A stretch of DNA of 64,000 nucleotides, from assembly GCF_030384885.1 (NCBI RefSeq), contig NZ_CP128613.1; one strand, 5' to 3'. A program made the translations under genes and the position numbers. How positions within the stretch are numbered: the stretch's first letter is position 1; each line of letters starts with the position of its first letter. The stretch comes from Escherichia coli (lineage in GTDB: Bacteria > Pseudomonadota > Gammaproteobacteria > Enterobacterales > Enterobacteriaceae). The notes beneath the pieces are model-generated. The model made no database searches. It was not told where the DNA came from and saw only the letters and a list, made by a program, of their open reading frames with translations. Positions 6,395 through 22,499 of this stretch are shown here, one piece after another.

Positions 6395-7501
6395 ATGAAT
6401 AAAACAATAACGGCGCTTGCTATCATGATGGCTTCATTTGCCGCAAATGCGTCTGTATTACCGCAAACTCCGGTGCCATTTAAAAGTGGTACCGGAGCAA
6501 TTGATAACGACACTGTCTACATTGGTTTAGGTAGCGCAGGTACGGCATGGTACAAGCTGGATACACAGGCCAAAGATAAAAAATGGATAGCGTTAGCTGC
6601 ATTCCCTGGTGGGGCGAGAGATCAAGCAACCTCTGCATTTATTGATGGCAATCTGTACGTATTTGGCGGCATTGGCAAAAACAGCGAAGGCTTGACTCAG
6701 GTATTTAATGACGTATACAAATACAACCCCAAAACCAATAGCTGGGTTAAATTGATGTCACACGCGCCGATGGGTATGGCGGGTCATGTGACTTTTGTAC
6801 ACAACGGCAAGGCTTATGTTACTGGCGGTGTTAACCAAAATATCTTTAATGGCTATTTTGAAGATCTCAACAAAGCTGGAAAAGATTCAACCGCTATAGA
6901 GAAAATCAACGCCCACTATTTTGACAAAAAAGCAGAAGATTATTTCTTCAATAAGTTTCTGTTGTCTTTTGATCCCTCTACACAGCAATGGAGTTACGCT
7001 GGCGAATCTCCCTGGTACGGAACGGCTGGTGCGGCGGTTGTGAATAAAGGTGATAAAACCTGGCTTATTAATGGCGAAGCCAAACCAGGATTGCGAACGG
7101 ATGCCGTATTTGAACTTGATTTCACCGGTAATAATTTAAAATGGAATAAACTTGCTCCCGTCTCATCACCAGATGGCGTCGCTGGCGGTTTTGCGGGGAT
7201 AAGCAATGACTCACTTATATTTGCCGGGGGGGCCGGATTCAAGGGGTCGCGGGAAAATTATCAGAACGGTAAGAACTATGCGCATGAAGGCCTGAAAAAA
7301 TCATATAGCGCTGATATTCATCTTTGGCATAACGGGAAATGGGATAAATCTGGCGAATTATCGCAAGGTCGGGCCTACGGAGTATCATTGCCCTGGAATA
7401 ATAGTTTATTAATTATTGGCGGTGAAACTACAGGCGGCAAAGCGGTGACGGATTCAGTTTTGATCTCTGTGAAGGATAATAAAGTCACAGTACAAAACTA
7501 A
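6395..7501 (+). CDS. nanM: N-acetylneuraminate mutarotase NanM (Kelch-repeat beta-propeller)
   Basis: 368 aa from MNKTITALAIMMASFAANA (signal peptide), RBS AGGAGA at 6381-6386; ORF-track upstream extension trimmed. Confidence 0.9.
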   Translation: MNKTITALAIMMASFAANASVLPQTPVPFKSGTGAIDNDTVYIGLGSAGTAWYKLDTQAKDKKWIALAAFPGGARDQATSAFIDGNLYVFGGIGKNSEGLTQVFNDVYKYNPKTNSWVKLMSHAPMGMAGHVTFVHNGKAYVTGGVNQNIFNGYFEDLNKAGKDSTAIEKINAHYFDKKAEDYFFNKFLLSFDPSTQQWSYAGESPWYGTAGAAVVNKGDKTWLINGEAKPGLRTDAVFELDFTGNNLKWNKLAPVSSPDGVAGGFAGISNDSLIFAGGAGFKGSRENYQNGKNYAHEGLKKSYSADIHLWHNGKWDKSGELSQGRAYGVSLPWNNSLLIIGGETTGGKAVTDSVLISVKDNKVTVQN

Positions 7502-7565
7502 TGCTTCAGGGCCCCAGTAAAGGGGCCCTGCTATCAATTTATCATTTCAATTACGCGAAAATTAT

Positions 7566-8546
7566 ATGAACGCAATAATATCGCCCGATTATTACTATGT
7601 TCTTACCGTTGCTGGTCAGTCTAATGCCATGGCGTATGGCGAAGGACTGCCATTACCGGACAGGGAAGATGCGCCTCATCCCAGAATTAAACAATTAGCG
7701 AGATTTGCGCATACGCATCCCGGAGGCCCGTCATGTCACTTTAACGACATTATTCCACTGACTCACTGCCCACACGATGTTCAGGATATGCAGGGTTATC
7801 ACCATCCTCTGGCAACGAATCATCAAACACAGTACGGCACCGTTGGCCAGGCACTGCATATTGCACGGAAATTACTGCCCTTTATTCCTGATAATGCAGG
7901 GGTTCTCATCGTTCCGTGTTGCCGTGGCGGATCGGCTTTTACCGCGGGCAGCGAAGGGACATATTCAGAACGGCACGGAGCCAGCCATGATGCTTGTCGT
8001 TGGGGAACGGATACTCCGCTATACCAGGATTTAGTCAGCAGAACGCGAGCCGCACTGGCAAAAAATCCGCAGAACAAATTCCTCGGCGTATGCTGGATGC
8101 AAGGCGAATTTGACTTAATGACCAGTGACTACGCGTCACACCCTCAACACTTTAATCATATGGTTGAAGCCTTTCGTAGGGATCTAAAACAATACCATTC
8201 TCAGCTTAATAATATTACTGGCGCGCCGTGGTTTTGCGGCGATACCACCTGGTACTGGAAAGAAAGTTTCCCTCATGCGTATGAAGCTATTTATGGCAAT
8301 TATCAAAATAATATTTTAGCCAATATTATTTTCATCGACTTCCAGCAACAAGGTGAAAGAGGGCTGACGAACGCGCCTGATGAAGATCCGGACGATTTAA
8401 GCACGGGATATTTCGGTTCAGCGTACCGGTCACCGGAGAACTGGACGACGGCACTGCGAAGCAGTCATTTCAGCGCGGCAGCCCGTCGGGGGATTATTTC
8501 TGACAGGTTTGTAGAAGCAATTTTGCAGTTTTGGAGCGAAAGGTGA
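7566..8546 (+). CDS. nanS: 9-O-acetyl-N-acetylneuraminate esterase NanS
   Basis: 326 aa, MNAIISPDYYYVLTVAGQSNAMAYGEG... (SGNH-like esterase motif GQSN). Confidence 0.9.
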   Translation: MNAIISPDYYYVLTVAGQSNAMAYGEGLPLPDREDAPHPRIKQLARFAHTHPGGPSCHFNDIIPLTHCPHDVQDMQGYHHPLATNHQTQYGTVGQALHIARKLLPFIPDNAGVLIVPCCRGGSAFTAGSEGTYSERHGASHDACRWGTDTPLYQDLVSRTRAALAKNPQNKFLGVCWMQGEFDLMTSDYASHPQHFNHMVEAFRRDLKQYHSQLNNITGAPWFCGDTTWYWKESFPHAYEAIYGNYQNNILANIIFIDFQQQGERGLTNAPDEDPDDLSTGYFGSAYRSPENWTTALRSSHFSAAARRGIISDRFVEAILQFWSER

Positions 8547-9128: not shown

Positions 9129-12100
9129 TTAAAGCTGACGTTGATCCAGACTGCTATATATTGCCTTTATTTCATTTTTTACGCTTTCGCCACGGTACAC
9201 CAAAGACGTATCGTATCGTTGATACTTATCTTCCCGTGCAGCACTGAACCAGTTAAAAGATCCGACACACAGCAGTTCTTCATCCTCAATTACAATTTTG
9301 CTGTGGACACGATTAACCAATTTCGTAGCGATACCCATCTTATTGAGCTTTTCAACAGCATCATTCAGCAGATGTTTTTTCTCCTGACGCTTATCATCAT
9401 CGACATGCGCTATATTGCAGTTTTTATCCGTCACCACAGTAATATCAATGCCCCGGGAACGGGCCAAAGCCATTGATGCCAGAAATCCCGTTTGCTCCAT
9501 TTTTTGCCAGGATAACCAAGGGGAAATAATCGTTATTTTCTTTTGAGCTCCGGCAAGAGTCTTGTTCAAAAATTCATCATGCGGCTCCACGCCATGCAGC
9601 GTTGAAATTTGTGTATGTGCGGAAATTAAATCCTGTCGTTTATGAAACTCAAATTGCAACGCATTATTATCTGAAGAAAAGAGATATTTTGCCAATAACC
9701 CTCGCGGCGAAAATGCGGGCTGCATCTCGATAAGGTCCATATCGCCAAATACCAGAAAACTATCTTTAGCGCGTGAGACAGCAACATTGAGGATACTGCT
9801 GTTGCTATCAAGAAACCTGCCATCTTCATGTTTTGAGTAGACTGGAGAAAAGAGAACAATCGCCCTTTCCGCCCCCTGCAAGGAGTGCACAGTCCCCACT
9901 GTCAGTGAACCCTCCTCGTCTTTGCCATTAATTTCCAGCTTACGCAATGACGTTTTGATAGCATTAACCTGCGCCGAAAATGGCGTCACAACACCAACAA
10001 CTTTGTACAGTGGTTCCCCGTAATGGCGCTCTATATCATCCTTATGTGCCACCAGCCATGCTGCTATTGTTTCAGCTTCAAGAGGGTTATAACGGCTCCC
10101 CCCATTTGGCTTCATGCCTCTACCATCAATATGTAAATATCCCATTGCGGGGAAAATCGTCCCTTTTTCTATCCCTCTTTTAGGCTGCAACTTACCGTGA
10201 TAGCAAAGTGAGTTACAGTAGCCGATGATGTTATTGAAACAGCGACGATGCTCATACAGATACATTCCGCGCTCGAACTTGGGATCATACTGGTAGTGAG
10301 AGTTAAACTGGGCTACCTGCATTACGCTGCCAGATGCTGCACTTTTTCCAGACCCACACACGTGAGTATATGTATTTATTAACTCTTCCTGAGTGCCACC
10401 AGAAATAATATTCTCCTCAAGCATATTGCCCATATCAGTGACGGGTAGACAATTCCAGATTGGAGCTATTTGCTCCGTATCGCCAATCACCAGCGCTTTC
10501 TTCGCCAATGCAAAGGAAGCTGCAGCAACCTCCGGGAGTACCTGCCCGGCTTCATCGACAATCAGTAAATCAGCAAAGTTATATAAATAATTATTATCCG
10601 ATGTTCTATCGCCACCAAAAGATTTTCTTCTGTTCATATGGTAAGGCAACATGTAGCAGGTCATCACCACACAAGGAGTAAGTTTCATTCTTCTTAGCCA
10701 ACGAGCCTCGGCGATAGTTATCCCGGTAATTCCTTTTTCTTTTTGCAAATTATCTATAGCTGCCATATCAATCAGCCAACGCCCCTCCCAATAATGGGTC
10801 GCTACCAAGAACGCTGGAAAACGAATCTGAGTATCGGCAAGTTCATCCGCTCCTGAAAGATTCAATTCATCGTCACCTCTGTAACCCAAAGCATAAGTCA
10901 ACTCACGCCATTGTTTTGCAGCTTCTATTTCGCGTCGGGCTATATCCTTCGCATAGTTGATGTTCTGTTGGCACTCATCCTGCTCCTTTTGCGTTTTAGC
11001 AATCAAACTATCAATAAATTCATCAATATCTTCGGGATAATTTCCCTGGAACGATGTCATTCTTGTGCCAAACGTAGAGTCCAGGAAGAGGTTAATCTGG
11101 TAATGGCGTTTAGTACGAACAGCAGGAAGCCATGACAAAACCGCATACACTAGCGACTCATCAGCACGGTATTGCTGCCACTGCTTTTTACCTCTGGTTA
11201 AAAGTGAAATTTCATTGCCAATATTGAGAAGACGTGTATTTTCGTCCTGAAGATACTGGTCGAGATTCTCACTGATGGCTCGCTGTTCATGGCGGATATC
11301 ATTAAGCCTGCGCCATGCGGGTTCGATTTGCTGAAGTTGAATAAACTGTGAAGTTAAACGTTCATGCAAAAGCGTCACTACATGCTCTGGTGAATTGCAC
11401 TCTCCAGCTCCAAACGCCACCTCCGCTTTTTCAAGGTAAAATGCCCGGGCTTTTTCCAGATATTCCTGGGATTCAACGTGGTTAAAAAAATCTTCAGTCT
11501 GGTATTTCTTCGCAGCCTCAACCTGACGGCTTTTAGACGGAAAATAAGCGCCATAGCTTATTACCTCCGGCAACCAACGACCAGCCATTACGCCAAAACC
11601 AGTAGAGAAATCTTTTCCAAAGGCTTCAATAATATTGGTGACGGCCTGATTGTTAGTTGATGTGGCAATAATTACAGGAGGTTCAGCTTGATTAAGTGCG
11701 GCTCTAGTCCATTCGGTGGCGATAATAGAAAGCACCAGCGTAGTTTTACCCGTTCCCGGAGGACCGTTAACAGCGAGCATATCCCCCTGCTGTTGAGTCA
11801 GATAATGGCTCAGGGCATCGCGCTGCGCCACTGCCAGCGGAAACTTATCGCCGGAATGCCCCAGACGTTCGCAGAACATAGCATTCTTAGCGAGAAGTGG
11901 CTCTAGTGGAACCATTTCATTTGAGGCAAAACGCGTTAATAGAGGAACCTTAACCTGGCTCATCAGCAGATGGTCATACAAAGGCAGGATATGAACACTG
12001 GCCCCTACATGCTGGCTAGCTTTAACAATATAACCGTATCCAGCCCGTTCGTATGGCTCAGATGTAGCGACCCAATTTCCAGCGACGTTTCTTAAAAGGT

Positions 12101-12644
12101 TATCTGACTGTTGAAGATAATTTTGCCAATGCTGACGATACCTGGCATGGCGTTCCGCTTTCTCTTCGTCAGTTTCTTCGTAATGTTCTGGTTGACCTTC
12201 ATTAATGGTGGCTGTGTTATGCGTAGTTTTGTATTTGTCATATTGCACCAACTCACCAATAGAAAAATGACCGGAAGGGAGAGGTTCAAGCAGATCGCGG
12301 GGAATAGTGGCTGAAGCGGCAGGAAACAAAAAACCTTCCCTATTAAGAAGAGCGGAGGTAACCAGTGGCGTAATAATTGCGGGTGCACCTGCCGTTTGCT
12401 CTTTGCCATGCTTTACAATGCGGTTCCATACCTGGGGCCGTAACACGACTTCAACGTTTTTTACAGACTCCCCTTCACCGTCAAAAAATGCCCGAATAGT
12501 TTCGTCATCCAACTGCCCTGCGCTGATATTTATCCACCGAATGAATGATTCTGTATCTTTACGTGAAAACGTTCCTTTGCCAGATTCGGCGTCAGCTAAG
12601 GAGTTGCGCCAGTATGAAGTGAATCCCAATGTATTGCTGTCCAT
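9129..12644 (-). CDS. Large helicase-nuclease fusion: N-terminal unknown region, SF1 Upf1/DNA2-like helicase, C-terminal PLD (HKD) nuclease; type II Mokosh-like defence candidate
   Basis: 1171-aa ORF, ATG at 12644. Walker [13 protein letters not shown], Walker [10 protein letters not shown], helicase motif [18 protein letters not shown]-terminal HKD motif [19 protein letters not shown]. Confidence 0.85.
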
Positions 12645-12837
12645 TTCTCATTCCGTGACATAATAGAAATCATTGATTTCATTGATGTAAATATTACTTA
12701 TGATTAAACATTGTCCACGATGCGAGCGCGATCGCAATAAATATTGTGCCTGGAGGATGGATTAGATTTTCTGAAAGAGCTAAATCCTTAATAGATAAAC
12801 GCGTACATACTTGGTTCGGTATTCTTAAGGGATTTAA

Positions 12838-12961
12838 TATGGATTGAACCAGGTTGACGTTAGTTGAAAAAAACAGTGGAAAAGATTTGTGTGGCGCGGA
12901 TTTCAGGCATAAAAAAAGACCTCAGTTGAGGTCTATTTACATACTTTTGGTGCGAAGGCCG
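12838..12961. repeat. Direct repeat copy 1 (island-distal att-like site): leuX 3' flank plus 14 nt of tRNA 3' end
   Basis: 12894-12953 is a 60-bp perfect copy of 22361-22420; about 55 bp upstream shows roughly 85 percent similarity; ends in TGGTGCGAAGGCCG, matching the leuX 3' end with a 1-nt deletion. Confidence 0.8.
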
Positions 12962-13077: not shown

Positions 13078-13875
13078 CTACTCATCATCGTCTTCCACTG
13101 GTTCCAGCACATCAAGCGCAACTCTCACCATAGCGATAGAACCAATACGAATGAAAGCATCTTCTCCATCTTCGTCGGTTATCATAAAACGAACCGTGGT
13201 TTCAGGCTCGCAATCCAGCGCGTCAAAAAAAGCATTCAACTGGCCGATATCATCCGTCTCTTCGTTTTGCGGCGCATCTGGCTCAACACTCAGTGGAATC
13301 ACTGGTCCGCCGTTTACCAGCGTGATATGGACATTAAAATAATCGTCTTCGTAGGCATCATCCTCTTCGTCAACGATTGGCCGCAGACCATCAGAAAGGA
13401 ACTGATGAAATACCACTTCACGCATATTTAACGCATAACGATACTCGGAAGAATCAAAAACGAAGAAGCGTTCTATGTTTGGAGTGTTTTTTTCCTGAAA
13501 ATAATAATAAAACCTCCGCTTATCCACTGCTGAAATGGGCAACAGCAAATAGTCCCGCTGCCCCTGTAGCCAAAGTTTTACGGTCCAGAGACCGCTATCC
13601 ATTTCAATGCCGCTTGTGGCTATAGCCTCAAGATCTTCATCAGTTTTACGACGCTTTTTGCGGAAGTCATTTATCAACCGATCGCTTTCCGGGAACACTA
13701 CGTTTAGAGGCTTATCCAGAGCATTACATATTGCCTGTGCGAGCCCCAGCTTTGCAGCAACCTTCCCGGTTTCGATACGCTGAATTTGTTGCTGGCTGGT
13801 GCCGACCATAAACGCCAGCTCGCGCTGGGTGATAGATAGCTGGGTACGGAGCTGTTTGATGTTGTTCTGTAACAT
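13078..13875 (-). CDS. XRE-family HTH domain fused to an acidic C-terminal domain of unknown function
   Basis: N-terminal helix-turn-helix LSITQRELAFMVGTSQQQIQRIETGK; about 200-aa C-terminal region ending VEDDDE; preferred start ATG 13875 with GAAGGA RBS (alternative 13884). Confidence 0.7.
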   Translation of the reverse strand: MLQNNIKQLRTQLSITQRELAFMVGTSQQQIQRIETGKVAAKLGLAQAICNALDKPLNVVFPESDRLINDFRKKRRKTDEDLEAIATSGIEMDSGLWTVKLWLQGQRDYLLLPISAVDKRRFYYYFQEKNTPNIERFFVFDSSEYRYALNMREVVFHQFLSDGLRPIVDEEDDAYEDDYFNVHITLVNGGPVIPLSVEPDAPQNEETDDIGQLNAFFDALDCEPETTVRFMITDEDGEDAFIRIGSIAMVRVALDVLEPVEDDDE

Positions 13876-13989
13876 GGCATCCATCCTTCAGAAGGAGTAG
13901 AAAGTGCCATTAAAACACAAAATTGAGTATAAACACATAATCGTGTTTATACTCACTAATCAACACCCTTGAACGAAAAGAAAATCTCT

Positions 13990-14265
13990 TCATCGTTCTT
14001 CTCTAGTATGCCAGAGATCGACTATATAAATGTCATTGTCACGAAGTTCGTAGTGAACCTCATGGTCATCAAATAACACTTTTCGGACTTCCCGAGGTTC
14101 ATACCGAGTCTGCTGTACGCCAATTGCCGGATGTGCTGTAAGACCAGCACAACCAGTAATCAGGCGATCCAAAACGTCATCGGCGTGCTGGCGGCTATAC
14201 TGAAGGGCGAAACGGTAGATACGCTCAAGGTCATCCTGAGCTTTAAGCGTCCAGTAAATTTCCAT
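13990..14265 (-). CDS. ParE/RelE-superfamily toxin
   Basis: 91 aa, C-terminal IYIVDLWHTREER typical of ParE; starts 3 nt after the upstream RHH gene stop. Confidence 0.75.
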   Translation of the reverse strand: MEIYWTLKAQDDLERIYRFALQYSRQHADDVLDRLITGCAGLTAHPAIGVQQTRYEPREVRKVLFDDHEVHYELRDNDIYIVDLWHTREER

Positions 14266-14268
14266 TAA

Positions 14269-14517
14269 TCAGGATTTCTTTAAGCGATTAGCAAAATCCA
14301 CCATGTCCGAGTGGCTCACCACGCGACCGGCATCCACATCCGCAAGACCGGCCTGGATGCTCTGGTGACGCCGTTCTCTTTCGGCCAGCATACTGGTCAA
14401 CGCTTCCTTAATAATCCAGCTCTTAGAACGATCTAACTCAATTGCCAGATTCTCAACAGCAGCGGCCAATTCAATAGGTATCTGTGCGCTGATGGTTTGT
14501 TTAGTAAGCGAACCCAT
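14269..14517 (-). CDS. Ribbon-helix-helix (ParD/CopG-like) antitoxin
   Basis: Small ORF directly upstream of the ParE-like gene; RHH-like N-terminus; start at 14517 (GAGGT RBS) preferred over the ORF-track start 14541. Confidence 0.65.
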   Translation of the reverse strand: MGSLTKQTISAQIPIELAAAVENLAIELDRSKSWIIKEALTSMLAERERRHQSIQAGLADVDAGRVVSHSDMVDFANRLKKS

Positions 14518-14592
14518 AGGGATTACCTCGTTTAATAACATTTAATAACTCCTATTAATATTAGCATAAAGGTGCTTATAAAAACATCAATC

Positions 14593-15426
14593 TCATTTCG
14601 CAGGTAACATCCCCGGAAAGTGCTTCGCCACGATATCATTCATCTTCTCCACCAGATCCAGGCGTTTGAAAGTGATATGCCCACTGCCCTTCTGAAAGTA
14701 GCGAATAGTGAACAACTCATCTTCGAAAATCTGCTGATGCGGATTATCGCGCACAAAATCCATAAACCGGATGGAGACATCATGCCGGTTATCAGGAATG
14801 GTCTTTCCATCCAGCAGGTAGAACATCCGTTCCAGATCGGCAAGCTGATCTCTCCGCCAGCCCCAGTTCAGGCTGTAGCCCCATCTGTCATGCTTCACCA
14901 GATTGTTAACGATAATCTTCTTACCGAAATAACAGGGATTATTGGTTTTGTAATCCCAGCTCAATCCCTTAAATACATTGATAATCCCACGTTCGAAAAC
15001 GTCCTGCTTATTGTGGTGGAGTTGTTCAAAGGTACTCAGGATGTTGGCTTCGCTAATCGCCGGGAGATCGCCCTCCTCCAGGTTCTTTGCCCACTGACTG
15101 CGGGCTTCGGCATCCATCAAGGTCAACATCCCGGACTTCAGCATGAGATCGCGCCAGATGCTGCGATCGATATTGCGGGTGATCACCGGCATGGCTTTAT
15201 CCACCGGCTGCACCAGCCAGCAGTCGAAGGAATGGCCCTGACGCATCGCCCAATGCTCCGCCACATCACCACCGATGCTGGAGGTTAGCCGTGAGATATC
15301 ATCAAGCTTATGGATCAGGATTTCTATCAGACTCAACGCAGCATCACGACCCGTCACGATACGCTCAACACTGGTCGAGCAAATTAGCTCGTTATGATCG
15401 GTTAAGACTTCAGCTTCTGTTTGCAT
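14593..15426 (-). CDS. Conserved hypothetical protein of the type commonly encoded downstream of cbtA-family toxin genes (possibly DUF4942-like)
   Basis: 277 aa from ATG 15426 (ORF-track TTG start at 15450); no motif I can assign; position after CbtA-like toxin. Confidence 0.6.
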   Translation of the reverse strand: MQTEAEVLTDHNELICSTSVERIVTGRDAALSLIEILIHKLDDISRLTSSIGGDVAEHWAMRQGHSFDCWLVQPVDKAMPVITRNIDRSIWRDLMLKSGMLTLMDAEARSQWAKNLEEGDLPAISEANILSTFEQLHHNKQDVFERGIINVFKGLSWDYKTNNPCYFGKKIIVNNLVKHDRWGYSLNWGWRRDQLADLERMFYLLDGKTIPDNRHDVSIRFMDFVRDNPHQQIFEDELFTIRYFQKGSGHITFKRLDLVEKMNDIVAKHFPGMLPAK

Positions 15427-15540
15427 AATCTTTTGTCCGTATAAAAGCAAATGCGCCAGCCATGAACAGCAGGCGCATTATGCAGGGAGTTATGAGGGAA
15501 GTAATTTTGGCGATGTAAATCGGGAAGGAGACTCGCAGAT

Positions 15541-15882
15541 TCACCGTGCCGTGGTGTTATGGCAGCGACGCAGCAGACCTGTAGCCTGCCGCGCCCGCAA
15601 AATATCGACCGCACGAAGATAAGGCGTCTGTTCCCGCCAGCTAAATCCTTTCCTGTCGATACGGATCAATTCGTACTTCTCCACCAGAAAATTGATGGCA
15701 TCAACCAGAGTGATCCCGGCGTCTATGTGTTCCTGAATCACCTTTTCATTGTTGAATGGTGTGTCATTAAGGTTCAGTCCGTAGTGCTGCTCCAGCAGGC
15801 GGGCCAGTAATGTTTGCCAGACCACGACGGGCGACAGATATGACGTCGTCGCCCGCAGCGTCGTTGCAGGAATAATTTTCAT
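15541..15882 (-). CDS. CbtA/YeeV/YkfI-family toxin
   Basis: 113 aa, [60 protein letters not shown] resembles YeeV/YkfI/YpjF. Confidence 0.8.
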
Positions 15883-15912
15883 AACGATGTTCCGTATTAA
15901 GGAGGTTAAAAC

Positions 15913-16248
15913 TCAGCGTTGAGTGGGATAAATAGCGATATAGACGTAACCACAGGAACCCAGCGTATCGGCTTCGCAGGTTAGTCCTTTGGCGTATAGC
16001 GTGACGGTACGTTGTTGGCAGGGGGAGAGTTCACCGTCAGCCAGTTTCAGCTCCAGTTGTTTCATCAACACCGGAAAAGCCTGGTCGATATGCAGCAGAT
16101 CCGGGGAGCTGAATTTCCCGGTAATTGCGGCCCGATCAGCCAGGTAATGCAGGTTATGTCTTTCCTGTACCAGTCGAGCAGTGAAGCGTGGTGTTACGGT
16201 ACAGGGAAGCCCCCATTCTTGTTGCATGACCTTGTCCTTTTGCAGCAT
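15913..16248 (-). CDS. CbeA/YeeU/YafW-family antitoxin
   Basis: 111 aa, WGLPCTVTPRFTARLVQERHNLHYLADRAAI...TVTLYAKGLTCEADTLGSCGYVYIAIYP resembles YeeU/YfjZ; directly upstream of the toxin. Confidence 0.8.
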   Translation of the reverse strand: MLQKDKVMQQEWGLPCTVTPRFTARLVQERHNLHYLADRAAITGKFSSPDLLHIDQAFPVLMKQLELKLADGELSPCQQRTVTLYAKGLTCEADTLGSCGYVYIAIYPTQR

Positions 16249-16360: not shown

Positions 16361-16909
16361 GTCTGTCGGCCCGACTGGGTTCCCTATGAGGTTGTCACGC
16401 ACACCACAGAATTCCTGCGCGAAGGCATCAAACGGGAGAAATTAAGCGACGCACAAATCCGCGAACTGGAAGAACAAGGCATAGATCCCAATACGCTGGA
16501 GTTTGATGGTAAGGCGCTGGATGAGGCGATCTACAACAAAGACACCAACCGCTATATCCTGCGTAACCTGATGGAAAATGGCCTGAAAGATCGGGACGGC
16601 CAGTTGCCTGGTAAAACCATCATTTTCGCCCGTAACCACAAACACGCGCTGCTGTTGAATGAATTGTTCGACGATATGTACCCGGAAGGGATTGATGCTG
16701 GCGTTGATTTTAAAGATCGCACGCAGGCGGCGTTTGTTGTACCAAAAGAAGATATTGCTGCGCAGAAATACGACCTCTCTATTAATCGTTATAAAGAAGT
16801 GGTGTATCAGGCTGAGGAGTATGAAGATCCGAAAGTGATACTGAAGCGGTTAAAAGATCTGGAAAATGAGATTCTGGCGGATCTGAATGAGCTGGAGGGA
16901 ATGCTGTGA
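16361..16909 (+). pseudogene. 5'-truncated remnant of the R-M gene that precedes hsdS (hsdM-like C-terminus)
   Basis: In-frame coding sequence from 16361 with no start until ATG 16571; C-terminal KYDLSINRYKE motif; stop overlaps hsdS start (GTGA at 16906-16909). Confidence 0.5.
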
Positions 16910-18090
16910 GTTGGCCGTTAGGAAAAGTTTCCGATATTGCTGCTGTTATATCCGGTTTTGCTTTTAAAAGCGAATGGTTTGGTACAGGAGACGCAAAGGT
17001 TATCCGAATTGGCGATCTTAAGAACGGAAAAATCGATCTTAGTGATGCAATGATCTTTGATCATAAAACTAATAAAGTTCGCGAACAATTTAGAATCAAA
17101 AGCGGCGATATTTTAATGGCTCTTTCTGGCGCAACTGTTGGGAAGATCGCAGTTGCTGATGCTGAAGCTGAAGGTGCATATCTTAATCAACGAGTAGCAG
17201 TGATTCGAGGGCGAAATCATGAAAATGCAGAATATTTAAAATACGTATTTTCAGGACACCCTCTCCAAAAACTACTCCTAAATGCAGGTGGTGCGGCACA
17301 GCCAAATCTTAGCTCTAAAGACTTGGCAGAGATGGAAATACCTATTCCCCCTCTTACCGAACAAAAAAGAATCTCAACCATACTTGATAAAGTAAATGGC
17401 ATACGTCAAAAGCGCGAGCAAGCCATAAAGCTGGCTGATAATTTTTTGCATACCATTTTTCATGAGATGTTTGGCGATCCTGTTAAAAACCCGAAGGGAT
17501 GGGATGTCGCCTCTTTATTAGAATATGGTTCATTCAAAAATGGAATGAATTTTTCAAAAGGTGAATTGGGATCTGCTTTGAAGTGCCTAGGAGTTGGTGA
17601 TTTCAAATCACTGGCAACGATTACCTGTATGGACAATATCGGTGAAATTGAATTAAATACTCTTCCTTCGGATGATTATCTTTTGAAAGATGGTGATATT
17701 GTCTTTGTCCGTTCTAATGGTAATAAAGCCTTGGTCGGAAGATGTCTTACTATTTATCCAAACAAAGAGAAAGTCACATTTAGTGGGTTTTGCATTCGAT
17801 ACAGAATAAAAAATCCTGCAATCACGCCAGAATATCTCAACTTCCTTTTCCGTACACCGTCAATGAAACAGCAAATGTTGAGCGGGGGCCAAGGGGCTAA
17901 TATTCAGAATATTAGCCAAGGTACCTTATCTGCACTCAGGATACCTGTACCTCCATTGGATAAACAACTTGCTTTTGCCAGATTGGTTGATTTCCATGCA
18001 TCTATTGTGAAAAAACAATATGATAAAATGGCTGAATCCGAAAAACTCTTCAATGCCTTGACTGGTGATTTTTTCACATTTAATGAGTGA
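16906..18090 (+). CDS. hsdS: Type I restriction-modification specificity subunit HsdS
   Basis: 394 aa, two target-recognition-like halves with conserved spacer motifs (NQRVAVIRG, LPPLTEQKRI, IPVPPLDKQ); GTG start with RBS GGAGGGA. Confidence 0.85.
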   Translation: MSWPLGKVSDIAAVISGFAFKSEWFGTGDAKVIRIGDLKNGKIDLSDAMIFDHKTNKVREQFRIKSGDILMALSGATVGKIAVADAEAEGAYLNQRVAVIRGRNHENAEYLKYVFSGHPLQKLLLNAGGAAQPNLSSKDLAEMEIPIPPLTEQKRISTILDKVNGIRQKREQAIKLADNFLHTIFHEMFGDPVKNPKGWDVASLLEYGSFKNGMNFSKGELGSALKCLGVGDFKSLATITCMDNIGEIELNTLPSDDYLLKDGDIVFVRSNGNKALVGRCLTIYPNKEKVTFSGFCIRYRIKNPAITPEYLNFLFRTPSMKQQMLSGGQGANIQNISQGTLSALRIPVPPLDKQLAFARLVDFHASIVKKQYDKMAESEKLFNALTGDFFTFNE

Positions 18091-18145: not shown

Positions 18146-18691
18146 ATGGGTACATATATCTCAGATAAAACAGAAACATGTTTTGATGAATATTCTTTAA
18201 TCGAAAAAGTCGGGGATGGCTATAAGATTAGTGTGTACTCATTTAAGCTTCATACAGGAAATCCTTACCAGCCACATATATCAGAAAGTTATAGTGGTGA
18301 TATTTTTATTAGCTATTTGTACTATGGAAATGATTCTTATTACGAGCGCAGACGTCAGGAATACAGAAAATATTTATCATTAAAAGAAATCCACCTTGCT
18401 ATTCTAAAGATGTTTCCAGATGAGCGAAGAATTGCGATAGGTATAAAAAAAGAAAATTACAGTACCGTAAAAATAACTTATGCGGCAGCGGATGAAGTAT
18501 ATCTTCTTGATATTAAAAATAAAGAGACATTATTGTTAGATAATATATTATGTCTATATGATGTTATTTATAAGCATGAAAGCAACATTAATAAATTGGA
18601 AGGCGAGTTAGCAAGTAGTAAAAAAGAACTCCAAAGTATGAAGATAGATATAAAAGAAAAATGTAAATCTATTCTTGATATTGTTGATTAG
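18146..18691 (+). CDS. Hypothetical protein, AT-rich, predicted C-terminal coiled coil
   Basis: 181-aa ORF, ATG 18146 with RBS AGAGGGG; markedly lower GC than neighbours; no recognisable motif. Confidence 0.55.
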   Translation: MGTYISDKTETCFDEYSLIEKVGDGYKISVYSFKLHTGNPYQPHISESYSGDIFISYLYYGNDSYYERRRQEYRKYLSLKEIHLAILKMFPDERRIAIGIKKENYSTVKITYAAADEVYLLDIKNKETLLLDNILCLYDVIYKHESNINKLEGELASSKKELQSMKIDIKEKCKSILDIVD

Positions 18692-18811
18692 TAAAAACAA
18701 CCCCAGTGGCAATAATTCATTGATATGGAACTCTTCTAATGGCTGAAATATTTTCTTTGCGTTATGATGTTTTGTTCTACAGCCTTGAGATTTCACGTCA
18801 GGAAAGTAACC

Positions 18812-19777
18812 ATGCCTTTAGATTTAAGTAATACTTTAGTTATTGGCATTAGCGCAACTGCGCTTTTTGACATGAGCGAATCGGATCGCATGTTTCGGGA
18901 AACCTATGCGACCGATCCGGATAGTGCCATTGAGAAGTATCGTGCTTATATGCTGGAACACGAAAACCAGCCTTTACAGCCCGGAACAGGCTACCCCTTA
19001 GTCAAAGCGTTGCTGGGGCTGAACCGGTACCGCCAGCCGGATGATAAATCGCCGTTGGTTGAGGTTGTTGTGATGTCGCGCAACAGTCCTGATACCGGTA
19101 TCCGCGTTTTGAATACCATTCGCCATGACAAACTCGATATTACACGTTCAGCTTTTACCGCAGGTGAAACCGTTGCCGATTACCTTGATGCCTTTGATGT
19201 GGATCTGTTTTTAACAACCAACGTTGAAGATGCGCAAAAGGTGATTGATTCCCGATTCTGCGCCGCTGCAATCCTGAAAGATCCGCCTTCTGACGCATCT
19301 GATATCCCGGAAGGGCAAGTGCGCATTGCTTTTGACGGCGACGCGGTACTTTTTTCCGATCAAAGCGAACTGGTTTATAAGACCCAAGGAATGGCTGCCT
19401 TTCATGCTCAGGAAGACGCGCAGCAGGATATCCCTATGGAAGAGGGGCCTTATGCCACTTTGCTAAAAAAAATAGCCAAGCTTCAGGAACGATTGCCGAC
19501 CCGCGTTGAGTATTCTCCTGTTCGTATTGCGCTGGTGACAGCCCGAAATAGCCCTTCGGAAATGCGCGTTATTAAAACGCTAAGAAGCTGGGGGGTATAT
19601 GTCGATGAAGCTTTTTTTCTTGGCGGTGTAGAGAAAACAAAAGTTCTGAAGGCGTTTAGGCCACACATTTTCTTTGACGATCAGGATGTGCATTTGATCG
19701 CGGCTGCAAAGGTAGTACCTTCTGGTAAAGTACCTTATGCCAGTAACTCCGAACTGGCAGAACGTGAAGCATCGTAA
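18812..19777 (+). CDS. HAD-superfamily 5'-nucleotidase-like protein
   Basis: 321 aa from MPLDLSNTLVIGISATALFD; HAD-like motifs FDGDAVLF (DxDxV), VTARNSPSE, FFDDQDVH; RBS AGGAAAG. Confidence 0.6.
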   Translation: MPLDLSNTLVIGISATALFDMSESDRMFRETYATDPDSAIEKYRAYMLEHENQPLQPGTGYPLVKALLGLNRYRQPDDKSPLVEVVVMSRNSPDTGIRVLNTIRHDKLDITRSAFTAGETVADYLDAFDVDLFLTTNVEDAQKVIDSRFCAAAILKDPPSDASDIPEGQVRIAFDGDAVLFSDQSELVYKTQGMAAFHAQEDAQQDIPMEEGPYATLLKKIAKLQERLPTRVEYSPVRIALVTARNSPSEMRVIKTLRSWGVYVDEAFFLGGVEKTKVLKAFRPHIFFDDQDVHLIAAAKVVPSGKVPYASNSELAEREAS

Positions 19778-19854
19778 TTATCGCTAACAAACCATTTAGT
19801 CATTAAGGCTGGATGGTTTGTATACCACACGCAAAATAACTGCCCTCCCCCAGA

Positions 19855-20730
19855 TCAATGCTCTCCTCTGAACACCTCTTTTCTGTGCCATTCCACAAAC
19901 CGCTCGCCAGGATAATTTTCTTTAACCGGTGGCAACGCAATCGCCTTTCCTGCAAAATCCCAGAACAGCCGCTGTACCACCCCACCGCCATTTACCGCGC
20001 CGGAAACCACCACACGCATATTTTCATCCAAACCAATCGAACCACGATCAAACGCTTTATGATGGATGGCGCACAATGCCAGGCCATTAGGTACTTCACA
20101 AGGGCCATGGTGCTGCTTCCATCTGATATGAGCGGCTTCCAGAGCAATCGGCGCATTGTCGTGGCGCATGTTAAAGCCGCAGATAGCGCACTGATAATTG
20201 TAAGCACGTAGCACCATCTGACGGAACTACGGATCGCGTTGACGGAGAGAGGTGCGAATATCAAAACCCATCTCGTCAGCTATCTCTTCCTGAATACTGG
20301 CCGGGAAATGCGCCTCCAGGAGCTGCTGCGCCAGCGTATCAATTAACCTGTGATTTTTTGCCACCAAAGCAAAATTATCGGCATCAAATCCACCAGCAAC
20401 ATTATATTCAATGAGTTCACGTCGGGGCGGCTGGCGGCTACCACTGGTTGAGCACAGTTCCGCGTTATGTAGTTCCCAGAAGCCATCGCCCTTCAGACGC
20501 CAGAACGGCATGTCCGGGCGCTGGTCACGGCGCTGCGGTCCATAACGTTCCAGTAGATCCAACAGGGGCTCGTAGATTTCAGAACCATAGTTAAACAGGC
20601 GACCATGACCCTGCCGATAGTGTGAGAGAACGTACAGCAGCAATAATGGCTTATGTGGCGCACGTTGTTCGCCTTTGCGCCAGATGGTGATATTTGATAT
20701 CGCTTGTTTTAGGGTTTTGTCAGAGGTCAT
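19855..20730 (-). pseudogene. HNH endonuclease-family gene with unknown N-terminal domain, interrupted by one in-frame amber (TAG) codon
   Basis: ORFs 20227-20775 and 19855-20217 are in the same frame, separated only by TAG at 20229-20227 plus 3 sense codons; C-terminal part has HNH motifs CAICGF...EAAHIRWKQHHGP...NGLALCAIHHKAFD. Confidence 0.7.
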
Positions 20731-20945: not shown

Positions 20946-22214
20946 TCACTCGCCATTCCCCCGGTTGATCTTCGCATAGTCAAACGGCGTAATCGCTCTT
21001 TCCCGATTGGCATCCAGAAAATCAGCCCACCACTGTAACATCAGCTTGCGCTCATCCAGATGTTCCGCTTTATGGATATACGCCGCCCTCACCGAATTGC
21101 GTTCCATATGGCTCATCTGGCGCTCCACCGCATCCTTCGACCATAGCCCTGACTCAATTAACGAACTACAGGCCATTGTACGGAAGCCGTGGCCGCAAAC
21201 TTCAACCTTAGTGTCATAACCCATCACCCGTAGCGCACTGTTTACCGTGTTCTCGCTCATGGGCTTACGCGGATCGTGATCGCCAATAAAAATCAGCTCA
21301 TGTTCGCCACAGAACTGTTTTATCTGCTTCAGGATCGCCAGCGCCTGCTTTGAAAGCGGCACCAGATGAGGTGTGCGCATCTTTGAACCTCGCTGAGAAT
21401 GTTTCACGCCGGGAATCGGTTCTCGCTCAGGCGGGATGGTCCACATTGATGTTTCAAAATCGATCTCTGACCAGCGAGCAAAACGCAGCTCACTGGATCG
21501 AATAAAAATAAGCAGAGTAAGTTCGGTTGCCCAGCGGGTTAGCGGCCTGCCGGTATAGCCGTCTATTTTCTCAAGCAACTCAGGGATGCGCTTTAACTCC
21601 AGCGCCGGACGATGCTGTCGATTACTGGAAGCAACCGCCCCTGCCATCTCTTGCGCCGGATTGTAATCAATTAACCCGCTTTGCACTGCATAACGCATGA
21701 TGGCCGTGGTGCGCTGTTGAAGGCGGGAAGCCACCTCAAGACGTCCGGATTTCTCCACGGCTTTAATAGGAATTAACAGATCGCGGGTGCCCAGTTCAGC
21801 AATATTGTGGGAACCAATTGCCGGGAAGATATTGTCCTCCAGGCTCTTTTTTACACGATTAGCATGATCTTCCGACCATTTTTGGTTGGTTACGAGCCAC
21901 TCTTTGGCAACCTTCTCGAAAGTAATAATCTCTTTCGCCTGCTCTTCTTTCACAGCACGCTTATGCTCACGAGGATCGATACCAGCAGCTACCAGCTTTC
22001 TGGCCTCTTCCCTTTTCTTCCTGGCATCCGCCAGCGAAACATCCGGGTAAACGCCGAACGCCATCAAATGTTGTTTACCACCAAAACGGAAACGAAATCG
22101 CCAATACTTTGAACCGCCAGGTTTTACAAGTAAGGACATGCCGTCGCCGTCAACAAGTGAATACTCTTTCTCCTCAGGTTTCGCAGAGCGAACTTTAGTA
22201 TCCGTTAGGGCCAT
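20946..22214 (-). CDS. intB: P4-type tyrosine integrase (IntB-like)
   Basis: 422 aa from MALTDTKVRSAKPEEKEY with RBS GGAAGGAAG; C-terminal tyrosine-recombinase catalytic region; adjacent to tRNA-Leu. Confidence 0.9.
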   Translation of the reverse strand: MALTDTKVRSAKPEEKEYSLVDGDGMSLLVKPGGSKYWRFRFRFGGKQHLMAFGVYPDVSLADARKKREEARKLVAAGIDPREHKRAVKEEQAKEIITFEKVAKEWLVTNQKWSEDHANRVKKSLEDNIFPAIGSHNIAELGTRDLLIPIKAVEKSGRLEVASRLQQRTTAIMRYAVQSGLIDYNPAQEMAGAVASSNRQHRPALELKRIPELLEKIDGYTGRPLTRWATELTLLIFIRSSELRFARWSEIDFETSMWTIPPEREPIPGVKHSQRGSKMRTPHLVPLSKQALAILKQIKQFCGEHELIFIGDHDPRKPMSENTVNSALRVMGYDTKVEVCGHGFRTMACSSLIESGLWSKDAVERQMSHMERNSVRAAYIHKAEHLDERKLMLQWWADFLDANRERAITPFDYAKINRGNGE

Positions 22215-22304
22215 AATGGTCTTCCTTCCATTGGTATCTCGTGAGTATACAAGCAATATCGAATCGGCAAATATACTCATTAGTATACTCACAAGCCTGT
22301 TGAT

Positions 22305-22420
22305 GTGGGTTGAGTCAGGTTGACTTCAGTTGAGGGGAAAAGCTGGAAAAGCCTTGTGTAGCGCGGATTTCAGGCATAAAAAAAGACCTCAGTTGAGGTC
22401 TATTTACATACTTTTGGTGC
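22305..22420. repeat. Direct repeat copy 2 (integrase-proximal), covering the leuX terminator hairpin and tRNA 3' end
   Basis: 22361-22420 identical to 12894-12953; contains GACCTCAGTTGAGGTC hairpin plus T-run on the minus strand (leuX terminator). Confidence 0.8.
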
Positions 22421-22499
22421 CGAAGGCCGGACTCGAACCGGCACGTATTTCTACGGTTGATTTTGAATCAACTGCGTCTACCGATTTCGCCACTTCGGC
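22415..22499 (-). tRNA. leuX: tRNA-Leu (CAA anticodon), leuX
   Basis: Reverse complement reads GCCGAAGTGGCGAAATCGGTAGACGCAGTTGATTCAAAATCAACCGTAGAAATACGTGCCGGTTCGAGTCCGGCCTTCGGCACCA, 85 nt with encoded CCA. Confidence 0.95.

What the first reader, a model, noticed from the sequence alone, without database searches (positions are those of the whole stretch)
18146..19777. Gene pair of unknown function in the island: AT-rich 181-aa protein plus HAD-type 5'-nucleotidase-like protein
Two co-oriented genes sit between hsdS and the HNH nuclease gene, each with a good RBS. The downstream one has HAD phosphatase motifs (FDGDAVLF, VTARNSPSE, FFDDQDVH) and resembles cytosolic 5'-nucleotidases; the upstream one is very AT-rich with a predicted coiled coil and no motif I recognise. 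A nucleotide-dephosphorylating enzyme inside a defence island is a plausible nucleotide-depletion or signal-degrading effector; I do not know a described system with exactly this composition. The sharp GC contrast between the two genes may instead mean they are unrelated insertions.
Basis: inference. Interest (0 to 1): 0.65.

Follow-up and report, generated by a model that had tools for sequence, protein, structure and literature searches.

The report
Nucleotidase gene beside swappable defence slot
The two neighbouring genes are real but are not a team: one is a highly conserved nucleotide-dephosphorylating enzyme, already catalogued as an untested anti-phage candidate, that forms the fixed edge of a mobile restriction island, and the other is a rare orphan gene sitting in the island's exchangeable cargo slot.

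Summary
Both ORFs exist. ORF A (18146-18691, 181 aa, about 30% GC) is as described. ORF B starts at 18812, not 18764, so it is 321 aa, not 337.

B is a full-length PF06189 protein, the family of human cN-IA 5'-nucleotidase. It also matches the PADLOC candidate PDC-S08. All four HAD catalytic motifs are invariant, and its N-terminal half is a degenerate copy of the catalytic half.

The "pair" reading fails:
- B occurs in 71 of 5426 complete E. coli genomes; A occurs in 2.
- The B family has at least 7993 protein clusters; the A family has about 9.
- In 13 sampled E. coli islands, B, the integrase and the tRNA are constant. The interval between the type I R-M genes and B holds at least 8 different cargo sets, including Dsr1 and SIR2 proteins.
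- All A-bearing loci descend from one hsdS-A-B arrangement. B is dead in three of the five distinct ones, while A is always intact.
- A evolves about ten times faster than its neighbours (dN/dS 0.2-0.4 against 0.02).

Outside these islands, most B homologs sit in ordinary chromosomal contexts. I found no experimental test of PDC-S08. In this window the R-M genes and the neighbouring PT-dependent nuclease are already inactivated.

Verdict: ordinary catalogued candidate plus an orphan cargo gene. Moderate to low interest.

The parts
16378..16909 (+). Remnant of the type I R-M genes: a 307-bp hsdR fragment (16378-16684) fused by a 2.9-kb deletion to the last ~230 bp of hsdM. It reads as a 112-aa chimeric ORF at 16571-16909.
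   Evidence: Megablast against the intact locus L001: window 16378-16684 matches hsdR 7327-7633, and window 16678 onward matches L001 10579 onward. ORF translation.
16906..18090 (+). hsdS, the type I specificity subunit. It is intact but orphaned. Its 3' half (TRD2, from about 17380) is co-inherited with ORF A.
   Evidence: PADLOC Specificity_I E 3e-164. A-bearing loci share homology from 17380 through A.
18146..18691 (+). ORF A: 181-aa orphan protein, about 30% GC. It has a beta-rich N-terminal region with an invariant YxYYGxDSxxERR motif and a C-terminal long helix or coiled coil (residues 126-180). It is the cargo of the variable slot.
   Evidence: dN/dS 0.21-0.42. No Pfam, NCBIfam, PADLOC, PHROG or PDB match.
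18692..18811 (+). A-B spacer. It has no terminator-like structure. Only its last 11-20 nt (the RBS of B) are shared with islands that lack A, so this is the right-hand breakpoint of the variable slot.
18812..19777 (+). ORF B: 321-aa HAD-superfamily 5'-nucleotidase of the cN-IA family (PF06189; PADLOC PDC-S08). Residues ~1-160 are a degenerate HAD-like half. Residues ~165-310 are the catalytic half (D175, D177, T243, K275, D289, D290).
19787..19821 (.). 15-bp perfect hairpin between the convergent genes B and the PT-dependent nuclease. It is a likely bidirectional terminator ending the hsdS-A-B transcription unit.
   Evidence: Fold -21.1 kcal/mol, z -4.5, 0 of 200 shuffles as stable.
19855..20730 (-). 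Phosphorothioated-DNA-binding restriction endonuclease (SBD-HNH, type IV). It is a pseudogene split by an internal stop.
   Evidence: NCBIfam NF045808: two ORFs cover profile positions 1-163 and 169-284. PGAP note 'internal stop' in the identical locus.
20946..22214 (-). Tyrosine integrase of the island.
   Evidence: PGAP annotation in the identical locus L001, offset 6099.
22415..22499 (-). tRNA-Leu (CAA), the integration site of the island.
   Evidence: ARAGORN.

Best explanation
The two genes are separate modules of one mobile island, not a system.

Shown for B:
- It is a stand-alone, strongly conserved 5'-nucleotidase of the cN-IA/PF06189 family.
- It is built from a catalytically dead HAD-like N-terminal half and an intact C-terminal HAD phosphatase half.
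- In E. coli it is the constant, integrase-proximal flank of a family of tRNA-integrated type I R-M islands.

Shown for A:
- It is a rare, fast-evolving orphan gene in the exchangeable slot between the R-M genes and B. Other islands carry Dsr1, SIR2-family or other unknown genes there.
- hsdS, A and B are probably read as one transcript ending at the hairpin after B. Comparative genomics shows they are inherited and lost independently.

Inferred for B:
- It dephosphorylates (deoxy)nucleoside monophosphates using Asp175 as nucleophile and Mg2+.
- The dead N-terminal half acts as a regulatory or oligomerisation domain, as expected for an allosterically regulated cN-I enzyme.
- In the island it acts on the dNMP pool produced when DNA is broken down. 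That would drain or clean precursors a phage could reuse. It would work beside restriction enzymes, not with A.

Inferred for A: it is an independent cargo gene, probably defence-related because of its position, that oligomerises through its C-terminal helix.
For: Family assignment of B:
- Pfam PF06189 E 5.6e-119, model positions 1-300 of 302. PADLOC PDC-S08 E 2.9e-135. PF06189 is the NT5C1A family (PMC5098729).
- Catalytic motifs are invariant in 28 homologs of 71-91% identity.
- Internal duplication: BLASTP E 3e-6 between the two halves. The N-half has I/A in place of D175/D177 and TT in place of DD (sequence).

Independence of A and B:
- B is in 71 of 5426 E. coli genomes, A in 2.
- The A family is 9 clusters among 5.8 billion proteins and 5 representatives among 1.84 billion. 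B has at least 7993 clusters.
- 13 sampled E. coli loci show at least 8 cargo sets upstream of B with a constant right flank. Cargo includes Dsr1 and PDC-S25 SIR2.
- Homology between islands resumes 0-20 nt before B's start codon.
- A is intact where B is frameshifted (FLI21), internally deleted (Salmonella) or truncated (Arsenophonus).
- Remote A homologs lie in a prophage and next to a gene whose C-terminal fragment looks RibF-like by eye. No B is in the prophage locus; the other contigs are only ~1 kb, too short to tell.
- Protein identity across genera: HsdR 91-99%, HsdM 93-98%, B 96%, A 67-88%. dN/dS: A 0.21-0.42, hsdM 0.02-0.03, B 0.02.

B beside restriction genes in unrelated taxa.

No terminator between hsdS, A and B; a strong hairpin after B.
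Against: - No enzymatic or phage-challenge data exist for B or A. I found no experimental test of PDC-S08 or PF06189 in defence.
- PDC candidates were defined by 'guilt by embedding' alone.
- Most B homologs at 62% identity or more are not next to recognisable defence genes: 10 of 41 loci had R-M, type IV, SIR2 or integrase hits with my limited reference set. Others sit beside citrate synthase, rsmB/gltP, PBP1C, recD or sbcCD.
- The 46-50% identity clade has housekeeping synteny.
- B's very low dN/dS is more typical of a metabolic enzyme than of an arms-race gene.
- All known A loci derive from a single hsdS-A-B ancestor. So A has never been seen to arise away from B, and a past functional link cannot be formally excluded.
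- The N-terminal domain of A could not be modelled (pLDDT 49).
Confidence: 0.6

Rival explanations
1. A and B form a two-gene defence system. A would be the sensor or regulator, and B the nucleotide-depleting or signal-degrading effector.
For: - They are adjacent and co-oriented, with a 120-nt spacer and no terminator between them.
- Every A-bearing locus has B or a remnant of B downstream.
- A validated two-gene system with a HAD hydrolase exists: Rst_Hydrolase-Tm, whose hydrolase is PF05761.
Against: - B occurs without A in 69 of 71 E. coli genomes and in thousands of other clusters.
- A-B co-occurrence is explained by one ancestral arrangement.
- B is inactivated in 3 of 5 distinct A loci while A stays intact and under purifying selection.
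- A evolves about 10 times faster than B.
- No A homolog lies within 10 kb of any of about 160 other B loci (reference 'A' gave no hits).
- A HAD phosphomonoesterase is not expected to cleave cyclic-nucleotide signals.
Confidence: 0.07
2. B is simply a metabolic or housekeeping 5'-nucleotidase that hitch-hikes on the island. It has no role in phage defence, and its PADLOC listing is a false positive of guilt by embedding.
For: - dN/dS is 0.02, and B is 72% identical between E. coli and Desulfomicrobium.
- Most homologs are in ordinary chromosomal neighbourhoods.
- Clostridial homologs show conserved synteny with sfsA-mutY and DUF1653-like genes.
- PDCs are untested, and a single embedded instance sufficed for listing.
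- PDC-S08 showed a 50/50 split between phage-resistant and susceptible P. aeruginosa strains (PMC10855318).
- B is frameshifted in 2 of 13 sampled E. coli loci.
Against: - B is accessory in E. coli (1.3% of genomes) and, in all 13 sampled loci, lies between a type I R-M and the island integrase.
- It recurs next to R-M or type IV genes in unrelated settings: Desulfomicrobium (type III + GmrSD), P. putida plasmid (integrase-B-DUF262), Stutzerimonas, Pseudoalteromonas, Shewanella, and metagenomic contigs.
- That is far more often than a random 20-kb window would contain such genes.
Confidence: 0.25
3. A is an accessory of the type I R-M system. It would be co-transcribed with hsdS and either modulate restriction or act as a back-up when restriction is inhibited, in the manner of PrrC.
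For: - A always lies about 55 nt after hsdS of the same HsdR(1137 aa)/HsdM(544 aa) family, with no terminator in between.
- A is co-inherited with the TRD2 half of hsdS.
- Genes embedded in type I R-M loci are often defence genes (10.1101/2024.01.29.577857).
Against: - The same R-M family carries other cargo at this position in most islands.
- A is intact in loci where the R-M is destroyed: this window and FLI21.
- Remote homologs are in a prophage and beside a gene whose C-terminal fragment looks RibF-like by eye, not beside hsd genes.
- A has no recognisable nuclease, ATPase or DNA-binding domain.
Confidence: 0.12

Closest known systems
Cytosolic 5'-nucleotidase IA (human NT5C1A, Pfam PF06189)
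   Same: Full-length match to the family HMM (E 5.6e-119, model positions 1-300 of 302). Same HAD catalytic motifs. By homology, the same reaction is expected: (d)NMP to nucleoside plus phosphate.
   Different: B is bacterial, island-borne and accessory. Its substrate range and regulation are untested. No family member has a solved structure by sequence search. The tandem layout of a dead HAD half plus a live HAD half was inferred here.
PADLOC phage defence candidate PDC-S08
   Same: B matches the model over positions 8-318 of 323 at E 2.9e-135. Single-gene candidate. Found beside or within type I R-M loci, which is how PDCs were defined.
   Different: PDC-S08 is a prediction only. I found no experimental validation. 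Here B is not embedded between hsd genes but lies at the far end of a cargo slot.
Rst_Hydrolase-3Tm (HAD hydrolase plus membrane protein, from P2/P4 hotspots)
   Same: A validated E. coli anti-phage system whose enzyme is a HAD-superfamily '5'-nucleotidase-like' hydrolase. It is encoded as a two-gene unit on a mobile element (family assignment from DefensePredictor supplementary table).
   Different: Its hydrolase belongs to PF05761 (cN-II family), not PF06189. B hits no PADLOC model other than PDC-S08 at E<=1. The partner there is a multi-pass membrane protein, whereas A shows no obvious long hydrophobic (membrane-spanning) stretch on reading its sequence (no transmembrane predictor was run) and is not a conserved partner.
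PUA-Cal-HAD and CARF-HAD effectors
   Same: HAD phosphatases acting on nucleotides as the output of anti-phage immunity. PUA-Cal-HAD depletes dNTPs after sensing m6-dAMP (PMC12871103). CARF-HAD acts in type III CRISPR (PMC12715507). Both are listed; known to me from abstracts only.
   Different: Those enzymes are fused to dedicated sensor domains (PUA/calcineurin-like, CARF). B has only the PF06189 architecture. Its possible sensor is the degenerate HAD half.
Defence-gene hotspots of integrative elements and genes embedded in type I R-M loci (e.g. PrrC in EcoprrI)
   Same: A variable cargo interval is bounded by conserved genes on a tRNA-integrated element. The cargo includes known defence genes Dsr1 and SIR2. 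Guilt by embedding is the same logic.
   Different: The slot here lies after hsdS (or hsdR) and before B, not between hsd genes. A has no recognisable effector domain.

Membership tests
HAD superfamily phosphatase | Motif I DxDx[TV] (nucleophile and acid/base Asp) | tested here: met
   D175-G-D177-A-V179 is invariant in 28 homologs.
HAD superfamily phosphatase | Motif II Ser/Thr, motif III Lys, motif IV acidic pair | tested here: met
   T243, K275 and D289-D290 are invariant.
HAD superfamily phosphatase | Rossmannoid HAD fold | tested here: met
PF06189 / cytosolic 5'-nucleotidase IA family | Full-length match to the family profile | tested here: met
   E 5.6e-119, residues 17-328 of the 337-aa ORF against model positions 1-300 of 302.
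PF06189 / cytosolic 5'-nucleotidase IA family | 5'-nucleotidase activity on AMP and pyrimidine dNMPs, with allosteric activation | not testable with these tools
   Requires an enzyme assay.
PADLOC PDC-S08 | Match to the PDC-S08 HMM as a single-gene candidate | tested here: met
   PDLC04900 E 2.9e-135, positions 8-318 of 323.
PADLOC PDC-S08 | Demonstrated anti-phage activity | not testable with these tools
   No experimental report found. PDCs are predictions.
Obligate two-gene system A+B | Co-occurrence of the two genes across genomes beyond shared ancestry | tested here: not met
   B is in 71 E. coli genomes and A in 2. No A homolog near about 160 other B loci. All A loci derive from one arrangement.
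Obligate two-gene system A+B | Joint retention or joint loss | tested here: not met
   B is frameshifted, deleted or truncated in FLI21, Salmonella and Arsenophonus, with A intact.
Rst_Hydrolase-3Tm | Hydrolase of the PF05761-type HAD family matching the system's model | tested here: not met
   PDC-S08 is the only PADLOC hit at E<=1. Pfam gives PF06189 only.
Rst_Hydrolase-3Tm | Adjacent multi-pass membrane partner | tested here: not met
   No obvious long hydrophobic (membrane-spanning) stretch on reading A's sequence; no transmembrane predictor was run. The AF2 secondary structure is beta strands plus one long, largely charged helix.
   Not met in E. coli: 1.3% of genomes, always in tRNA-integrated islands. 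Met for the 46-50% identity Clostridia clade, with the DUF1653-like-B-sfsA/mutY arrangement. Met for several proteobacterial homologs of 64-82% identity.

The most novel reading that the evidence does not exclude
The mobile clade of PF06189 nucleotidases may be a functional partner of restriction, especially of modification-dependent (type IV) nucleases.

B is directly followed by DUF262/GmrSD genes in Desulfomicrobium, a P. putida plasmid and Stutzerimonas. It lies near McrBC, SRA-HNH or the PT-dependent HNH nuclease elsewhere.

B could clear or drain non-canonical dNMPs such as hm-dCMP, hm-dUMP, m6-dAMP or PT-linked products. That would either starve phages that build modified DNA at the dNMP level, or stop modified nucleotides from being salvaged into host DNA and provoking self-restriction.

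In parallel, the interval between the R-M genes and B would be a recombination-swappable slot. Its uncharacterised cargo (A and at least five other unknown gene sets) would then be new defence genes.
Probability: 0.15. Interest if true: 0.7.

Novelty: already known. Interest (0 to 1): 0.35.

Why it matters
Little changes for the original claim, because there is no new two-gene system here. Two useful points remain.

- **B is widespread and untested.** PDC-S08/PF06189 is an unusually conserved enzyme, homologous to a human nucleotidase, that repeatedly sits at the edge of restriction islands. Its role there has never been tested. A dNMP-level pool effector would be a different point of attack from the known dNTP, NAD or ATP depletion systems.
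- **The slot is a place to look for new defence genes.** The interval between the R-M genes and B is bounded by conserved sequence on both sides and already contains Dsr1 and SIR2 genes in some strains. ORF A and several other unknown cargo sets are therefore cheap, well-defined candidates for phage-challenge screens.

Tried and rejected
- **Annotation of A.** Pfam (single sequence and per-member), NCBIfam, PADLOC, PHROGs, and PDB sequence and profile searches gave only coiled-coil noise.
- **Structure of A.** AF2 with 7 sequences gave pLDDT 49. Only the C-terminal helix is reliable, so I ran no fold search on it.
- **Exhaustive HMM search for A relatives.** It returned 5 representatives, two of them marginal (E ~1e-4). 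These share the YxYYGxDSxxERR motif but sit in unrelated contexts.
- **A in phage or plasmid collections.** None found.
- **B in viral contigs.** Only 2 loci, so B is not a phage gene.
- **Rfam and terminator scans of the region.** Nothing apart from the hairpin after B.
- **Literature.** Searches for PDC-S08, PF06189, NT5C1A plus phage defence, and nucleotidase plus GmrSD found no functional study. The PADLOC 'embedding' preprint and its supplements do not mention S08 or nucleotidase by name.
- **Hypotheses rejected.** 'A is not a real gene' is rejected by conservation across four genera and dN/dS of 0.2-0.4. 'B degrades cyclic-nucleotide signals' is rejected because HAD enzymes are phosphomonoesterases.
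- **Limit of the neighbourhood counts.** Counts used a small home-made reference set. 'No hit' there does not prove a non-defence context.
Full report
**What is in the sequence**

The window is an E. coli chromosome segment around tRNA-Leu (CAA) at 22415-22499, next to ahr, yjgR, lptGF and pepA. Left of the tRNA lies a small integrative island. Its layout is: integrase (20946-22214, minus strand), a PT-DNA-dependent restriction endonuclease (19855-20730, minus strand), ORF B, ORF A, hsdS, and a remnant of hsdR/hsdM.

ORF A is 18146-18691, 181 aa, with GAGGGG 5 nt before its ATG. Four lines of evidence put the true start at 18812, giving MPLDLSNT... and 321 aa:
- The AGGAAAG Shine-Dalgarno sequence sits before 18812.
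- PGAP annotates this start in a 100% identical locus.
- The initiator Met is invariant in 28 homologs.
- DNA homology to other islands begins at 18792-18812.

GC is about 30% in A and 48% in B. There is no terminator-like structure between hsdS and A or between A and B. A 15-bp perfect hairpin (19787-19821, z = -4.5) follows B. The three co-oriented genes therefore probably share a transcript.

**What B is**

B matches Pfam PF06189 '5-nucleotidase' end to end (E 5.6e-119). This is the family of human cytosolic 5'-nucleotidase IA (PMC5098729 Table 1). B also matches the PADLOC model PDC-S08 (E 2.9e-135).

- **Internal duplication.** The N-terminal half is a diverged copy of the C-terminal half (BLASTP E 3e-6). 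In the N-half the catalytic Asp residues are replaced: GISATALF against FDGDAVLF, and LFLTT against IFFDD.

**What A is**

A has no match in Pfam, NCBIfam, PADLOC, PHROGs or PDB beyond coiled-coil noise.

- **Family size.** Its family is tiny: 9 clusters among 5.8 billion proteins, and 5 representatives among 1.84 billion in an exhaustive profile search. It occurs in E. coli, Salmonella, Pectobacterium and Arsenophonus.
- **It is a real gene.** It is full length and 67-92% identical across genera. It carries an invariant core ISYLYYGNDSYYERRRQEYRK, and dN/dS is 0.21-0.42.
- **Remote relatives.** Two marginal relatives (P0131, P0132) keep the motif YxYYGxDSxxERR and a C-terminal helix. They sit in a prophage accessory region and downstream of a gene whose 33-residue C-terminal fragment looks RibF-like by eye, which I did not test by any search.
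- **Structure.** AlphaFold2 was uninformative (pLDDT 49), except for a long C-terminal helix at residues 126-180.

**Are they a pair? No.**

*Distribution.*
- In 5426 complete E. coli genomes, B is present in 71 and A in 2.
- B's family has at least 7993 clusters. Members are 72-91% identical across Shewanella, Pseudoalteromonas, Photobacterium, Azotobacter and even Desulfomicrobium.

*Island architecture.*
- I looked at 13 E. coli loci.
- The right-hand side is constant: B, sometimes the PT-dependent nuclease, the integrase, and tRNA-Leu, tRNA-Sec or tRNA-Phe.
- A type I R-M system is always upstream.
- The interval directly upstream of B holds at least eight different gene sets:
  1. A
  2. 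Three hypotheticals
  3. A 228-aa hypothetical plus Dsr1
  4. 582-aa plus 88-aa proteins
  5. A helicase plus a 421-aa protein
  6. IS5 plus a small ORF
  7. A SIR2-family PDC-S25 protein
  8. A 580-aa protein
- Dsr1 and the SIR2 protein are confirmed by PADLOC. The other cargo has no PADLOC hit.
- DNA homology between islands stops in hsdS and resumes 0-20 nt before B's start codon. A therefore sits in a swappable slot and B is its fixed right border.

*One origin for all A loci.*
- The A-bearing loci share continuous homology from the middle of hsdS (17380) through A into B. They are one ancestral arrangement, so their A-B adjacency is not independent evidence of a link.
- Within this small group B decays while A persists. 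B is frameshifted in E. coli FLI21. It has an internal deletion in Salmonella. Only its first ~134 nt remain in Arsenophonus.

*Rate of evolution.*
- A evolves much faster than its neighbours. Protein identity across genera is HsdR 91-99%, HsdM 93-98%, B 96% and A 67-88%.
- dN/dS is 0.02-0.03 for hsdM and B.

*Wider survey.* No A homolog was found near about 160 further B loci from genomes and metagenomes.

**Is B a defence gene?**

Evidence for:
- B is accessory in E. coli and always lies in R-M islands.
- It recurs beside restriction genes in unrelated settings:
  - Shewanella: variable type I, McrBC or Zorya cargo upstream, and a dynamin-like GTPase cluster downstream.
  - Desulfomicrobium: a type III-like R-M, then B 28 nt later, then GmrSD.
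  - Pseudoalteromonas: integrase-B ... HNH/SRA-HNH, and hsdRMS-B ... McrBC.
  - P. putida plasmid pKF715A: integrase-B-DUF262.
  - Stutzerimonas and P. endophytica: hsdRMS ... B-DUF262.
  - Metagenomic contigs with hsdMSR-B and B-McrBC.

Evidence against:
- PDC candidates were defined purely by being embedded in BREX, DISARM or type I R-M loci and are untested (10.1101/2024.01.29.577857).
- I found no functional study of PDC-S08 or PF06189 in defence.
- Among 41 loci with 62% identity or more to B, only 10 had R-M, type IV, SIR2 or integrase neighbours detectable with my reference set.
- Others sit beside citrate synthase, rsmB/gltP (conserved in two Methylophilaceae-like loci), PBP1C, recD, sbcCD, queC or c-di-GMP genes.
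- The 46-50% identity clade, mostly Lachnospiraceae, has conserved synteny: a DUF1653-like gene, B, then an sfsA-mutY fusion.
- B's very low dN/dS looks like a metabolic enzyme.

The family is therefore mainly an ordinary, conserved nucleotidase. One sub-lineage has been captured by mobile restriction islands.

**Most likely mechanism (inferred)**

B is a Mg2+-dependent phosphomonoesterase using Asp175 as nucleophile. It would convert (d)NMPs to nucleosides. The dead N-terminal HAD-like half would serve as a regulatory or oligomerisation domain, as expected from the allosterically controlled cN-I enzymes. This rests on established knowledge of cN-I and was not tested here.

Its neighbours across taxa are nucleases that generate or respond to unusual nucleotides: restriction enzymes, type IV nucleases, RecD, SbcCD and MutY. 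This makes a role in disposing of dNMPs from DNA breakdown, possibly non-canonical ones, the best guess.

For A, I can only say that it is an independently inherited, fast-evolving cargo gene. It probably oligomerises through its C-terminal helix. Its position among Dsr1 and SIR2 alternatives makes a defence role plausible but unproven.

**State of the island in this window**

The type I R-M is dead. A 2.9-kb deletion joins an hsdR fragment to the 3' end of hsdM. The PT-dependent nuclease carries an internal stop. Only hsdS, A and B remain intact.

**Verdict**

The two-gene-system interpretation is not supported. B is a member of an already catalogued, experimentally untested candidate family, and A is an orphan. 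Interest is moderate to low. The most useful leads are the recurrent B/type IV adjacency and the well-bounded cargo slot.

Noticed in passing
window 9129-12644 (- strand): The 1171-aa helicase/PLD-like protein is a full-length MkoC (Mokosh type II), PADLOC E = 0 over positions 1-1135 of 1136. It lies in a second island, left of the one studied.
   Followed up: partly
window 12834-12961 versus about 22300-22430: A 130-bp stretch is 87% identical to the region between the integrase and tRNA-Leu. It looks like an att-type repeat bounding a ~9.5-kb island, which implies tandem islands at this tRNA.
   Followed up: partly
window 16378-16909: The type I R-M is inactivated. Only 307 bp of hsdR remain, fused through a few bases of overlap to the last ~230 bp of hsdM. 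This gives a 112-aa chimeric ORF and leaves hsdS orphaned.
   Followed up: yes
window 19855-20730 (- strand): The PT-DNA-binding restriction endonuclease (SBD-HNH) is split by an internal stop into 182-aa and 120-aa ORFs. The same gene is intact in E. coli W and GF43, but also a pseudogene in several other strains.
   Followed up: yes
window 18812-19777 (protein residues 1-160 versus 165-310): B is an internal duplication: a catalytically dead HAD-like N-terminal half plus a live C-terminal half (BLASTP E 3e-6; two Rossmann-like halves in the model). I did not check whether this has been described for cN-IA.
   Followed up: partly
L017 9001-12149; L106 7001-9803; L025 9595-12392; L070; L022; L119: B is directly followed, co-oriented, by DUF262/GmrSD-family type IV nucleases in Desulfomicrobium, P. 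putida pKF715A and Stutzerimonas. McrBC lies one or two genes downstream in P. luteoviolacea and in a metagenomic contig. This may be the real functional neighbour of B.
   Followed up: partly
L047-L099, and the low-identity loci within L126-L188: In the 46-50% identity clade (mostly Lachnospiraceae/Clostridia), the nucleotidase gene sits between a DUF1653-like gene and an sfsA-mutY fusion gene. The same region holds glyA, holA, comEC and hom, which is housekeeping-type synteny.
   Followed up: partly
L012-L016 (Shewanella): The identical nucleotidase protein flanks a variable region that carries type I R-M plus different cargo in different genomes: McrBC, an ArdC-like/MPTase protein, an AAA_15 ATPase set, or Zorya. 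In four of the five loci a conserved cluster of dynamin-like GTPases lies downstream. This looks like another defence hotspot bounded by B.
   Followed up: no
L106 9970-12760; L016 15840-18633: A VWA / PP2C phosphatase / Ser-Thr kinase triad lies just downstream of B (after a DUF262 gene or GTPase genes) in the P. putida plasmid and in a Shewanella-like contig.
   Followed up: no
L002 6232-7940; L004 5852-7859; L005 6229-7494; L003 3344-4030; L189 4168-5910: Other cargo in the same slot between the R-M genes and B are uncharacterised proteins. The first four sets have no PADLOC hit. The 580-aa protein of L189 was not searched. These are candidate unknown defence genes on the same footing as A.
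   Followed up: partly
L104 9722-10686; L010 10668-11009; L008 about 10660-10800; L192 6013-6977: B is repeatedly a pseudogene: frameshifted in E. coli FLI21 and A19, internally deleted in Salmonella, truncated in Arsenophonus. This suggests weak or conditional selection for it on these islands.
   Followed up: partly
L111 1213-4274; L060 8179-12451; L113 7234-8948: Chromosomal B homologs lie immediately after recD, immediately before sbcCD, or after queC. This fits a link to DNA breakdown or modified-nucleotide metabolism.
   Followed up: no
window 13078-16248 (- strand): The rest of the island holds several small genes without family hits. These include a 268-aa protein with an N-terminal HTH (PADLOC HTH_VI; antitoxin-like NCBIfam hits), a 91-aa/90-aa overlapping-type gene pair, and 285-, 113- and 111-aa ORFs.
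   Followed up: no
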